NCBI RefSeq assembly: GCF_003334355.1
Contig: NZ_QOWP01000006.1
DNA: 64,000 nt
Reading direction: 5' to 3' (one strand)
From: Escherichia coli
GTDB taxonomy: Bacteria; Pseudomonadota; Gammaproteobacteria; Enterobacterales; Enterobacteriaceae
Notes under the pieces: generated by a model
Told to the model about the DNA's origin: nothing
Database searches by the model: none
Seen by the model: the letters and a program-made list of their open reading frames with translations, nothing else
Position numbers and translations under genes: made by a program
Part shown: positions 1,274 through 3,391 of the stretch, piece by piece
How positions within the stretch are numbered: position 1 is the first letter of the stretch
Layout of the letters: every line of letters begins with the position of its first letter

Positions 1274-3391
1274 ATGAGTGAAGGACCAGGCGGGCCACAG
1301 GGAGCGACCGCAGGCGGTACGCTGGCAATGCGAATGCTGTCACAGCAGGCGATGGTCGCCAGCCAGATGAAACGGGCAGCCAACGACAAAGCCATTGCAC
1401 AGATGCTGGCAGCAAAGAAGTCCGGCCCACCTGCCGCCAGGCTGGGCGATGAAATTCAGCATAAAAGTTTTCTGGGGGCACTGGCAGGGGCCGTGCTGGG
1501 GGCGATAGTGACCATCGCAGAAGGTTGCCTGATTATGGCCGCCTGCGCCACCGGCCCTTATGCGCTGGTTCTGGTGCCTGCGCTGATGTATGCCAGCTAT
1601 AAGGCGAGTGATTATGTGGAGGAGAAACAGAACCAGCTTGAATCATGGATAAACAGCTTTTGTGACACGGACGGCGCCATCAATACCGGTTCTGAAAATG
1701 TAAACATTAACGGAAAGCCCGCTGCAAGGGCCGCCGTCACCCTTCCCCCTCCTCCCCCACCTGGAGCAATACCTGAAATCCCACAGGGGGAACCCTCATG
1801 GGGTGATATTGCCACTGACCTGCTTGAATCGGCAGCGGAAAAAGCAGTACCACTGGCGAAGGCCTGGGGGAACGCTGTTATCACCCTGACGGAAAGCAAT
1901 GCCGGTTTTATGGATCGCGTCAGCGCCGGCGCATCGCTTCTGTTTCCCGCCGGTCCGGTATTAATGGAGTTTGCCACCATGGTGGGCGGGCGTGGCGAAA
2001 TCAAAAAAGATGTGGATTTCCCGGAAGCCGGTGAGGACACGGCGCTCTGCGACAAGGAGAACAAACCACCGAGGATAGCCCAGGGCAGTAGCAACGTCTT
2101 TATCAACAATCAGCCTGCCGCGCGCAAGGGCGACAAACTGGAGTGCAGTGCGGCGATCGTGGAAGGTTCGCCGGACGTCTTTATTGGGGGTGAGCAGGTC
2201 ACCTATCTGGATATCCAGCCGGAGTTCCCGCCATGGCAGAGAATGATCCTGGGAGGAATAACGATAGCCAGCTATCTTCTGCCGCCAGCAGGACTGCTGG
2301 GAAAACTGGGGAATCTGGCGAAACTGGGCAAACTGGGAAACCTGCTGGGGAAAAGCGGGAAGCTGCTGGGCGCAAAGCTCGGCGCGTTGCTGGGGAAAAC
2401 AGGTAAGTCGTTAAAAAGTATTGCCAATAAAGTCATCAGATGGGTAACAGATCCTGTCGATCCGGTAACCGGCGCGTACTGCGACGAACGTACCGACTTC
2501 ACCCTGGGCCAGACCCTCCCCCTCTCCTTCACCCGTTTCCACAGTTCGGTACTGCCACTGCATGGCCTGACGGGCGTGGGCTGGAGTGACTCCTGGAGCG
2601 AATACGCCTGGGTGCGTGAACAGGGAAACCGGGTGGATATCATCAGCCTGGGAGCCACGCTGAACTTCGCCTTCGACGGTGAAAGTGATACGGCGGTTAA
2701 CCCGTATCACGCCCAGTACATTCTGCGCCGCCGTGATGATTATCTGGAGCTGTTCGACAGGGATGCACTGAGCAGCCGCTTCTTTTATGACGCCTTTCCG
2801 GGAATGCGTCTGCGCCACCCGGTGACTGACGATACCAGCGATGACCGCCTGGCACACAGCCCCGCAGACCGGATGTACATGCTGGGCGGGATGAGCGACA
2901 CCGCCAGCAACCGCATCACGTTTGAGCGCGACAGCCAGTACCGGATCACGGGTGTCAGTCACACCGACGGGATCCGGCTTAAACTGACGTACCACGCCAG
3001 CGGCTACCTGAAAGCCATTCACCGCACGGATAACGGCATACAGACGCTGGCGACCTACGAACAGGATGCGCGGGGGCGGCTGACAGAAGCGGATGCGCGG
3101 CTGGACTACCACCTGTTTTATGAGTACGACGCTGCGGACCGGATCATCCGCTGGTCCGATAACGACCAGACGTGGAGCCGTTTCACCTACGATGCACAGG
3201 GCCGGTGCGTGACCGTCACCGGGGCGGAGGGCTATTACAACGCCACGCTGGACTATGGTGACGGCTGCACCACCGTGACGGACGGCAAGGGCATTCACTG
3301 TTATTACTATGATCCTGACGGCAATATTCTGCGGGAAGCAGCGCCGGACGGGTGGAGAAATTTGAATACAACGCCGCACACGATCAGTTAA
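1274..3391 (+). CDS. rhs: prePAAR/PAAR-Rhs T6SS effector, N-terminal segment (prePAAR motif, TM helices, PAAR, first YD repeats); reading frame breaks near 3350
   Basis: 705-aa ORF; AARLGDEIQH fits the prePAAR motif AARxxDxxxH; hydrophobic stretch follows; PAAR-like GKPAAR and NQPAARKGD segments; YD-repeat core begins; frame ends 3391 while the continuation is in another frame. Confidence 0.8.
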   Translation: MSEGPGGPQGATAGGTLAMRMLSQQAMVASQMKRAANDKAIAQMLAAKKSGPPAARLGDEIQHKSFLGALAGAVLGAIVTIAEGCLIMAACATGPYALVLVPALMYASYKASDYVEEKQNQLESWINSFCDTDGAINTGSENVNINGKPAARAAVTLPPPPPPGAIPEIPQGEPSWGDIATDLLESAAEKAVPLAKAWGNAVITLTESNAGFMDRVSAGASLLFPAGPVLMEFATMVGGRGEIKKDVDFPEAGEDTALCDKENKPPRIAQGSSNVFINNQPAARKGDKLECSAAIVEGSPDVFIGGEQVTYLDIQPEFPPWQRMILGGITIASYLLPPAGLLGKLGNLAKLGKLGNLLGKSGKLLGAKLGALLGKTGKSLKSIANKVIRWVTDPVDPVTGAYCDERTDFTLGQTLPLSFTRFHSSVLPLHGLTGVGWSDSWSEYAWVREQGNRVDIISLGATLNFAFDGESDTAVNPYHAQYILRRRDDYLELFDRDALSSRFFYDAFPGMRLRHPVTDDTSDDRLAHSPADRMYMLGGMSDTASNRITFERDSQYRITGVSHTDGIRLKLTYHASGYLKAIHRTDNGIQTLATYEQDARGRLTEADARLDYHLFYEYDAADRIIRWSDNDQTWSRFTYDAQGRCVTVTGAEGYYNATLDYGDGCTTVTDGKGIHCYYYDPDGNILREAAPDGWRNLNTTPHTIS

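What the first reader, a model, noticed from the sequence alone, without database searches (positions are those of the whole stretch)
2260..2410. Glycine/lysine/leucine tandem repeat (KLGxL units) inside the Rhs N-terminal region
The stretch GLLGKLGNLAKLGKLGNLLGKSGKLLGAKLGALLGKTGKS is encoded by imperfect ~15-bp DNA repeats (AAACTGGGnAAnCTG). It is an unusual low-complexity linker between the PAAR region and the YD core, and is potentially unstable by slipped-strand recombination.
Basis: seen in the sequence. Interest (0 to 1): 0.25.

Follow-up and report, generated by a model that had tools for sequence, protein, structure and literature searches.

The report
Lysine-glycine-leucine tether in Rhs toxin
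The odd KLG-rich stretch is real, but it is a length-invariant, conserved piece of the known "post-PAAR" tether that joins the spike-binding tip of an E. coli type VI secretion Rhs toxin to its protein cage, not an unstable repeat.

Summary
Rhs residues 340-379 (nt 2291-2410) read GLLGKLGNLAKLGKLGNLLGKSGKLLGAKLGALLGKTGKS: 13 Leu, 11 Gly, 8 Lys, no acidic residue. It is the lowest-complexity 40-residue stretch in any frame of the window. The DNA period is 9 nt rather than 15, the units are only 63-85% identical, and the longest exact repeat is 12 nt.

All 117 evenly sampled E. coli matches, at 89-100% identity, have exactly the same length, and alleles differ only by substitutions. The same gene does carry deletions elsewhere (27 nt in O157; 67 nt in this window, which makes it a pseudogene).

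The gene is the vgrG-eag-rhs island effector (EDL933 "rhsF" type), a prePAAR/Eag-dependent T6SS Rhs. The stretch lies in its postPAAR region. A hydrophobic helix lies upstream. An amphipathic "anchor" helix and the DP|V autocleavage site lie downstream.

Homologues (Erwinia, Photorhabdus, Xenorhabdus, Pectobacterium) have a strongly basic Gly/Ala-rich tail of variable length here. In Photorhabdus Rhs1 the equivalent lysines cross-link to the EagR chaperone. In P. protegens RhsA the equivalent position holds the seal peptide.

Best reading: a constrained cationic tether, possibly membrane-active. AlphaFold gives helices at low confidence. Low interest.

The parts
25..765 (+). 3' end of vgrG (T6SS spike protein), upstream of the effector
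   Evidence: NCBIfam TIGR03361 VI_Rhs_Vgr, E=6.9e-67. RefSeq twins annotate a full VgrG here.
793..1254 (+). eag chaperone gene (DcrB/DUF1795 family); acidic protein, pI 4.6
   Evidence: Pfam DcrB PF08786, E=1.7e-27. Annotated 'DcrB-related protein' in RefSeq. pI.
1274..5724 (+). Rhs effector gene, a pseudogene in this strain: two overlapping ORFs (1274-3391 and 3352-5724) created by a 67-nt deletion
   Evidence: ORFs and translations. YD repeats and Rhs_assc_core. The 100% identical RefSeq twin is flagged 'frameshifted'. Deletion mapped.
1433..1462 (+). prePAAR motif AARLGDEIQH (residues 54-63)
   Evidence: Matches AARxxDxxxH. Pfam prePAAR_I, E=7.9e-5.
1469..1600 (+). TMD1, the hydrophobic region at residues 66-109
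   Evidence: Sequence. AF2 helices 66-92 and 94-127.
1667..1732 (+). First PAAR segment (residues 132-153)
   Evidence: Pfam PAAR_motif, weak (E=0.012). Aligns to Plu0353 PAAR.
2069..2203 (+). Second PAAR segment (residues 266-310)
   Evidence: Pfam PAAR_motif, E=5.2e-10. AF2 pLDDT above 90.
2219..2290 (+). postPAAR hydrophobic helix PEFPPWQRMILGGITIASYLLPPA (residues 316-339), conserved across the family and aligning to the first TMD2 helix of class II effectors
   Evidence: Conserved EFxxWxR..L...PP block in homologues. Aligns to class II TMD2. AF2 helix 320-335. 11 synonymous versus 1 non-synonymous variants in nt 2150-2290.
2291..2410 (+). The finding: KLG-rich cationic segment (residues 340-379), with a glycine stripe and GxxxGxxxGxxxG at 362-374
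   Evidence: Length invariant in E. coli.
2405..2446 (+). Amphipathic helix KSLKSIANKVIRWV (residues 378-391), the positional equivalent of the RhsA 'anchor helix'. It lies in the mosaic allele patch 374-392.
   Evidence: Highest hydrophobic moment in the region, 0.62-0.65. Aligns to RhsA 289-302. Equal-length divergent allele SRTKNALKNTYNVLKKFIK. AF2 helix at low pLDDT.
2450..2458 (+). D393-P394|V395, the predicted N-terminal autocleavage site
   Evidence: P394 and G400 are invariant in 39 homologues. Equivalent to Plu0353 D288-P289|I290 and RhsA P305.
2450..2626 (+). DUF6531, the start of the Rhs plug and shell (residues 393-451)
   Evidence: Pfam PF20148, E=3e-12. AF2 pLDDT 80-90 from residue 391 onward.
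3340..3357 (+). Junction of the 67-nt deletion (after about nt 3348) that frameshifts the gene, between the microhomologies GCCGGACGG and GCCGGGCGG
   Evidence: Alignment with intact alleles.

Best explanation
The KLG-rich stretch is the middle of the roughly 88-residue postPAAR region (residues 307-394) of a prePAAR, Eag-chaperone-dependent T6SS Rhs effector.

Order along the protein: prePAAR, TMD1, split PAAR, hydrophobic post-PAAR helix (316-339), KLG segment (340-379), amphipathic anchor helix (378-391), DP|V autocleavage site (393-395), then the Rhs plug and cage.

The segment is a fixed-length, strongly cationic, helix-prone tether whose glycines fall on one helical face. After N-terminal autocleavage it stays with the PAAR fragment.

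Most likely mechanism:
- The C-terminal part runs to the mouth of the cage (the seal-peptide position) and into the anchor helix, so the cleaved cage stays attached to the spike tip.
- After firing, the exposed cationic Gly/Leu helix may lie on the anionic inner membrane next to the hydrophobic helices and help toxin entry.

Shown here: position, composition, glycine periodicity, length invariance, mostly synonymous variation, and family-wide conservation of a basic tail.
Inferred from homologues: Eag proximity, the seal and anchor role, and cleavage.
Speculative: membrane activity.
For: Architecture and context:
- Pfam finds prePAAR_I, PAAR, DUF6531 and RHS repeats.
- vgrG and a DcrB/DUF1795 eag gene lie directly upstream.
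- The closest solved relative is Photorhabdus Rhs1/Tre23 (7pq5_L, E=1.9e-46), aligned across PAAR, postPAAR and the cleavage site.

Constraint on the segment:
- No length variant in 117 sampled E. coli matches.
- In residues 340-373 there are 7 synonymous and only 2 non-synonymous variants, G346K and K350R.
- The divergent allele patch 374-392 keeps the same length and the same basic amphipathic character.

Family pattern:
- In the 17 DP-type representative sequences the tail after the hydrophobic helix has net charge +6 to +21 with few acidic residues. Total postPAAR length in these ranges from 75 to 125 residues.
- Class II effectors align their TMD2 (a hydrophobic helix plus a GxxxG-rich helix) to residues 316-380.

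Helix signals:
- Glycine spacing averages 3.7 residues. The Fourier peak is at 96 degrees, with P=0.003 in the alpha-helix band.
- The motif GxxxGxxxGxxxG lies at 362-374.
- AF2 draws helices at 338-349, 354-375 and 377-392.

Literature:
- The isolated postPAAR of Plu0353 binds EagR (PMC8636562).
- Plu0353 K252 and K266, in its K/G/A-rich tail, cross-link to EagR. K282 cross-links to the encapsulated toxin.
- In RhsA the seal peptide is 268-275, the amphipathic anchor helix is 289-302 and cleavage is at P305 (PMC8765631). Through the alignment these map to E. coli 355-362, 378-391 and P394.
- The E. coli Eag protein is acidic (pI 4.6), while the segment has pI 10.8.
Against: - Both AF2 runs give the segment pLDDT 25-45, so no confident fold or placement was obtained. 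In the run that included the cage, the anchor helix is also below 50.
- The HMMER alignment to RhsA and Plu0353 within the low-complexity part is weak, so the seal-peptide equivalence rests on position only.
- In Plu0353, K266 cross-links both to EagR (outside the cage) and to the shell. This does not fit a single static geometry.
- Hydrophobic moment in the repeat itself is only moderate, 0.1-0.4. The periodicity of Leu and Lys is not significant.
- There are no experiments on the E. coli protein, and the gene is a pseudogene in this strain.
Confidence: 0.6

Rival explanations
1. Passive flexible spacer. The segment is an unstructured low-complexity linker whose only requirement is approximate length and solubility. 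The KLG regularity is a lineage-specific accident with no binding or membrane role.
For: - AF2 pLDDT is 25-45 in both models.
- Glycine makes up 27% of the segment.
- Sequence is not conserved between genera, and total postPAAR length ranges from 72 to 125 residues.
Against: - A spacer tolerant of length change should show indels in a species with roughly 2,170 carrier genomes and up to 11% DNA divergence. None were seen.
- Variation in the core is mostly synonymous.
- Strong positive charge with almost no acidic residues is conserved across genera.
- The homologous lysines cross-link to EagR and to the shell in Photorhabdus.
- Glycine periodicity matches an alpha-helix.
Confidence: 0.22
2. 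The primary role is membrane activity. The segment is a cationic glycine-zipper helix that, together with TMD1 and the post-PAAR hydrophobic helix, permeabilises or inserts into the target inner membrane to pass the toxin. It would work like Tse6 TMD2 or the Tde1 glycine zipper.
For: - GxxxGxxxGxxxG lies at 362-374 and the glycines form a stripe on one helical face.
- The segment occupies the position of the GxxxG-rich second helix of class II TMD2.
- Its charge of +8 suits anionic bacterial membranes.
- The Tde1 GxxxG motif is required for permeabilisation and delivery (PMC10240207).
- Pfam 'Glycine zipper 2TM' touches 354-374, but at E=7.6, which is not significant.
Against: - Eight lysines in 40 residues rule out a classical transmembrane helix.
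- Hydrophobic moment is only moderate.
- By position, half of the segment should sit at or inside the cage mouth.
- No assay exists, and the glycine-zipper match is a short pattern in a Gly-rich sequence.
Confidence: 0.25
3. Contingency or slipped-strand locus. Repeat copy number changes by slippage and generates length or phase variants of the effector.
For: - Imperfect tandem DNA repeat (TRF score 55).
- A 12-nt exact repeat 45 nt apart could give an in-frame deletion.
- Some database fragments read the region out of frame.
Against: - 0 of 117 sampled matches vary in length.
- Units are 63-85% identical and differ at synonymous sites.
- The out-of-frame fragments have 1-7 members each and shift frame at different points. 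Several carry further errors, as expected of indel-rich assemblies.
- Real deletions in the gene lie in the YD region.
Confidence: 0.02

Closest known systems
postPAAR domain of Photorhabdus laumondii Rhs1 (Plu0353/Tre23; PDB 7PQ5; Jurenas et al. 2021, PMC8636562)
   Same: - Same architecture: prePAAR, TMD1, PAAR, postPAAR, D-P cleavage site, Rhs shell.
- Sequence match E=1.9e-46, including the EFxxWxRxxL...PP helix and the DP[VI]DxxTG site.
- A K/G/A-rich basic tail between that helix and the cleavage site.
- An Eag gene adjacent.
   Different: - The Photorhabdus tail is longer (postPAAR 101 vs 88 residues), irregular and contains acidic residues. The E. coli tail is a near-periodic K-L-G pattern.
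- E. coli also has a roughly 98-residue insert inside PAAR.
- Eag binding and cleavage are shown only for Photorhabdus.
Seal peptide and anchor helix of Pseudomonas protegens RhsA (PDB 7Q97; Gunther et al. 2022, PMC8765631)
   Same: An amphipathic helix lies directly upstream of the N-terminal cleavage proline. About 14 residues further upstream, a short peptide leaves the cage through the cork. By alignment these map to E. coli 378-391 and 355-362.
   Different: - RhsA has an H-P cleavage site and a shorter, more hydrophobic, nearly uncharged postPAAR (about 66 residues).
- Similarity in this part is weak (E=4.3e-8 overall, most of it from PAAR).
- Placement in E. coli is not confirmed by AF2.
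TMD2 of class II prePAAR effectors such as Tse6 (Ahmad et al. 2020, PMC7773334; Quentin et al. 2018)
   Same: Same position directly after PAAR. The PExPxW hydrophobic helix followed by a GxxxG-rich helix aligns to E. coli 316-380. In class II effectors TMD2 is bound by a second Eag chaperone.
   Different: Class II TMD2 is hydrophobic and nearly uncharged, and those effectors have no Rhs cage. The E. coli second helix carries 8 lysines and leads into a cage. Class I Rhs effectors were defined as having a single TMD region.
N-terminal glycine zipper of Agrobacterium Tde1 (Ali et al. 2023, PMC10240207)
   Same: Consecutive GxxxG motifs in the N-terminal, chaperone- or adaptor-handled part of a T6SS effector. 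They are proposed to permeabilise the target inner membrane.
   Different: Unrelated protein with a different adaptor (Tap1/DUF4123). The Tde1 motif overlaps a predicted transmembrane helix, while the E. coli segment is highly charged. The resemblance is a short motif only.

Membership tests
prePAAR T6SS effector, class I (Ahmad et al. 2020) | prePAAR motif AARxxDxxxH near the N-terminus | tested here: met
   AARLGDEIQH at residues 54-63. Pfam prePAAR_I, E=7.9e-5.
prePAAR T6SS effector, class I (Ahmad et al. 2020) | Hydrophobic TMD region between prePAAR and PAAR | tested here: met
   Residues 66-109 are hydrophobic. AF2 helices 66-127.
prePAAR T6SS effector, class I (Ahmad et al. 2020) | PAAR domain plus Rhs/YD repeats and an Rhs-associated core | tested here: met
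   Pfam PAAR_motif and RHS_repeat. NCBIfam YD_repeat_2x, Rhs_assc_core and RHS_core.
prePAAR T6SS effector, class I (Ahmad et al. 2020) | Cognate Eag (DUF1795/DcrB) chaperone gene, with vgrG nearby | tested here: met
   DcrB PF08786, E=1.7e-27, for ORF 793-1254. VgrG upstream.
prePAAR T6SS effector, class I (Ahmad et al. 2020) | Only one TMD region (no TMD after PAAR) | tested here: inconclusive
   A second hydrophobic helix (316-339) follows PAAR and aligns to class II TMD2. No TM predictor was run. Plu0353 shows the same feature.
postPAAR region of Plu0353-type Rhs (Jurenas et al. 2021) | Sequence homology through postPAAR, including the conserved helix after PAAR | tested here: met
   7pq5_L aligned to query 254-467, domain E=5e-33. 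Conserved EFxxWxR...PP block.
postPAAR region of Plu0353-type Rhs (Jurenas et al. 2021) | Ends at an Asp-Pro N-terminal autocleavage site | tested here: met
   The motif D393-P394-V395...T399-G400 is present. P394 and G400 are invariant in 39 homologues. The cleavage itself is not testable here.
postPAAR region of Plu0353-type Rhs (Jurenas et al. 2021) | Binds a second EagR chaperone | not testable with these tools
   Known only for Plu0353, from pull-down and XL-MS K252/K266. AF2 here handles single chains only.
RhsA-type plug accessories (seal peptide and anchor helix) | Amphipathic helix immediately upstream of the cleavage site, held inside the cage | tested here: inconclusive
   The helix is present by sequence (hydrophobic moment 0.62-0.65 around residues 372-391) and in AF2 secondary structure (380-389). 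However, pLDDT is below 50 and no placement could be read.
Glycine zipper | (G/A/S)xxxGxxxG pattern on one helix face | tested here: met
   G362-G366-G370-G374. Glycine periodicity 3.75 residues, P=0.003 in the alpha-helix band.
Glycine zipper | Motif embedded in a hydrophobic membrane helix | tested here: not met
   8 Lys in 40 residues and mean Eisenberg hydrophobicity 0.1-0.3. Pfam Glycine zipper 2TM only at E=7.6.
Simple-sequence contingency locus | Near-identical tandem DNA units | tested here: not met
   Units are 63-85% identical. Longest exact repeat is 12 nt. Glycine codons differ between units.
Simple-sequence contingency locus | Copy-number polymorphism among strains | tested here: not met
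   58/58, 54/54 and 5/5 sampled E. coli matches have identical length. The 11 sequences read directly also have equal length.

The most novel reading that the evidence does not exclude
This clade of 'class I' Rhs effectors has a cryptic second membrane-active element. The lysine-rich glycine-zipper helix would be a charged descendant of class II TMD2 that behaves like a cationic antimicrobial peptide. Once released from Eag and pulled from the cage mouth, it would bind and permeabilise the anionic inner membrane, coupling unsealing of the cage to toxin translocation.
Probability: 0.2. Interest if true: 0.45.

Novelty: new member of a known kind. Interest (0 to 1): 0.15.

Why it matters
How Rhs toxins leave the cage and cross the target inner membrane is still open; both structural papers say so. 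The postPAAR tether sits where chaperone, cage mouth and cleavage site meet.

The E. coli version is unusually regular, short and invariant. That makes it a convenient handle for unit-by-unit deletion, charge-swap and Gly-to-Leu experiments.

In itself, though, it is a lineage-specific form of a known region in a known effector type. The intriguing claim, repeat instability, is not true. In this window the gene is also already inactivated by an unrelated deletion.

Tried and rejected
- The search for homologous proteins with the 176-aa region returned mostly short fragments. Many read the repeat DNA in the +1 frame (NNDSQLSSAAS...) and return to frame at different points. They have 1-7 members each, and I judged them to be indel-rich assemblies, not biology.
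- The genome-contig scan found a single locus, an E. coli-like contig binned as Collinsella, with the same length.
- The look-up of encoding contigs for the Erwinia homologue P0064 found nothing.
- AF2 of residues 1-469 gave helices for the segment at pLDDT 42-45.
- AF2 of the intact strain U1 allele, residues 311-1505, folded the cage well (pLDDT about 90) but left residues 311-388 at pLDDT 25-44. The test of whether the anchor helix and tether enter the cage therefore failed.
- No fold search was run, because the confidence of the segment was too low.
- The 27-nt length difference of O157 alleles was suspected to lie in the repeat. It does not; it is at nt 3064-3090 in a YD repeat.
- The Pfam 'Glycine zipper 2TM' hit is not significant (E=7.6).
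- The antisense ORFs over the region (2272-2658, 2411-3379) are low-complexity mirror frames and not genes.
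Full report
**What is in the sequence**

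The window is E. coli. ORF 1274-3391 translates to an Rhs N-terminus that contains GLLGKLGNLAKLGKLGNLLGKSGKLLGAKLGALLGKTGKS. This is residues 340-379, nt 2291-2410, with 13 Leu, 11 Gly, 8 Lys and no acidic residue.

It is the lowest-entropy 40-residue window among 26,098 windows from all six-frame ORFs of at least 100 aa in the 64 kb.

The whole window holds 7 matches against 1.5 expected by chance. These matches overlap at 9-nt spacing. TRF reports period 9 x 5.1 copies (score 55) and period 21 x 2.3 copies. Units are 63-85% identical, and the longest exact repeat is 12 nt.

**Context**

- Upstream lie the 3' end of vgrG and a DcrB/DUF1795 eag chaperone gene.
- The Rhs protein has a prePAAR motif (AARLGDEIQH, 54-63), a hydrophobic TMD1 (66-109), a split PAAR (132-153 and 266-310), DUF6531 from residue 393, and YD repeats.
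- RefSeq twins show the island lying between cusS and nfrB.
- In EDL933 the same arrangement is the vgrG1 island: vgrG1 (z0707), eagR (z0706) and rhsF (PMC7216683).
- In this window the gene is broken. A 67-nt deletion after about nt 3348, between GCCGGACGG and GCCGGGCGG, shifts the frame. The 100% identical RefSeq record is flagged 'frameshifted'.

**Is the repeat unstable?**

About 2,170 of 5,426 complete E. coli genomes carry the segment.

- In a sample taken at even steps down the ranking, all 58 full-length matches to nt 2150-2520 span exactly 371 nt in one ungapped piece, at 89.3-100% identity.
- In a second sample with nt 2225-2470, 54/54 span exactly 246 nt and 5/5 partial matches span exactly 177 nt.
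- With zero variants in roughly 110 distinct genomes, length variants are below about 3% at 95% confidence.
- Ten alleles read directly, plus one metagenome contig, differ only by substitutions: L341Q, G346K, K350R, K378N, and an equal-length mosaic patch in which GKTGKSLKSIANKVIRWVT is replaced by SRTKNALKNTYNVLKKFIK.
- In residues 340-373 there are 7 synonymous and 2 non-synonymous variant codons.
- Glycine codons differ between units, so the units are not recent slippage copies.
- The gene does have indels in other places: 27 nt in O157 at 3064-3090 and the 67-nt deletion here.

**What the segment is**

The closest solved relative is Photorhabdus laumondii Rhs1/Tre23 (7pq5_L, E=1.9e-46). 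It aligns through PAAR, the following region and the cleavage site.

[quoted passage not shown] It shows that the isolated postPAAR binds the EagR chaperone and that the N-terminal fragment ends at D288-P289. In E. coli the equivalent site is D393-P394|V395, and P394 and G400 are invariant in 39 homologues.

The paper's cross-link table lists EagR S117 to Rhs K252 and EagR S74 to Rhs K266 under 'TMD2'. It also lists K282 to the encapsulated toxin. Counting along the aligned chain, K252 and K266 lie in the K/G/A-rich tail that matches the E. coli segment.

In P. protegens RhsA the plug includes a seal peptide (268-275), an amphipathic anchor helix (289-302) and cleavage at P305. With the 60-residue offset of chain 7q97_A, these map to E. 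coli 355-362, 378-391 and P394. The E. coli stretch 372-391 has the highest hydrophobic moment of the region, 0.62-0.65. It coincides with the mosaic allele patch, as expected of a helix that must match its own cage.

**Family pattern**

A search of 1.84 billion representative proteins found 1,047 relatives.

In the DP-type representative sequences the region always begins with an EFxxWxR...PP hydrophobic helix. It then continues as a tail of net charge +6 to +21 with few acidic residues. Total postPAAR length is 75-125 residues. Named members come from Erwinia tracheiphila, Xenorhabdus, Pectobacterium and Inquilinus.

More distant HP/NP-type Rhs proteins have a hydrophobic, GxxxG-rich tail instead. 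Class II effectors of about 400 aa align their TMD2 to E. coli 316-380.

The E. coli segment therefore looks like a lysine-rich, regularised version of a family-wide element. It is not an oddity.

**Structure signals**

- Glycines are spaced 3.7 residues apart on average. The Fourier peak is at 96 degrees (P=0.003 in the alpha-helix band, 0.05 over all frequencies).
- GxxxGxxxGxxxG lies at 362-374.
- AF2 of residues 1-469 draws helices at 338-349, 354-375 and 377-392, but at pLDDT 42-45.
- AF2 of an intact allele (strain U1, residues 311-1505) folds the cage at pLDDT about 90. It leaves 311-388 at pLDDT 25-44, so placement relative to the cage could not be tested.
- The Eag protein is acidic (pI 4.6), while the segment has pI 10.8.

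**Verdict**

The stretch is a constrained, fixed-length cationic tether within the postPAAR region. It runs between the Eag-bound hydrophobic helix and the anchor helix and cleavage site at the cage mouth.

A direct membrane role is possible, in the manner of a glycine zipper such as Tde1 (PMC10240207). It is untested, and the high charge argues against a classical transmembrane helix.

The slipped-strand idea is refuted at the sampling depth used. The feature is a new member of a known kind and of low interest.

Noticed in passing
window 3340-3357 (junction after about nt 3348); ORF overlap 3352-3391: The Rhs gene in this window is a pseudogene. A 67-nt deletion between the microhomologies GCCGGACGG and GCCGGGCGG shifts the frame. 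Among the listed hits, only NZ_CP080070 aligned uninterrupted across this junction (query 1-2118 in one piece, 100%).
   Followed up: yes
window 3064-3090: O157:H7 alleles lack 27 nt in frame here (QDARGRLTE, inside a YD repeat). Length variation in this gene therefore occurs in the shell, not in the KLG segment.
   Followed up: yes
window 1739-2032 (Rhs residues 156-253): A roughly 98-residue insert splits the PAAR domain relative to Photorhabdus Rhs1. It is acidic and consists of a PPPPPPP run followed by three predicted helices, with low pLDDT. The match range of the Erwinia tracheiphila homologue P0064 (query 25-423 to 11-448) suggests it has the insert too; not checked directly. Function unknown.
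   Followed up: partly
window 2393-2449 (Rhs residues 374-392): About 180 E. coli genomes carry an equal-length but strongly divergent patch, SRTKNALKNTYNVLKKFIK, in place of GKTGKSLKSIANKVIRWVT. It covers the predicted anchor helix. Erwinia tracheiphila paralogues also diverge just before the DP site. This may mark a recombination boundary that travels with the cage.
   Followed up: partly
window 5620-8405: After the DPLGL cleavage motif only about 35 residues remain (NKGASLSK...GKDI*). Two small unannotated ORFs follow (5757-6017 and 6014-6304), then an ISAs1 transposase (7269-8405). The toxin/immunity module looks truncated or replaced.
   Followed up: no
window 2233-2410, +1 frame relative to Rhs: Several database proteins (P0009, P0011, P0014, P0018, P0020, P0024, P0029, P0032, P0036) translate this DNA out of frame (..NNDSQLSSAASGTAGKTEESGETRQTG..) and switch frame at different points. 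They are probably indel errors at the many G3-4/A3-4 runs in noisy assemblies.
   Followed up: partly
L011 (JAIJJM010000894.1, 'Collinsella sp.' MAG contig) 195-839: A 1.15-kb contig binned as Collinsella (an actinobacterium) encodes this E. coli Rhs N-terminus at 91% identity. This is most likely binning contamination.
   Followed up: no
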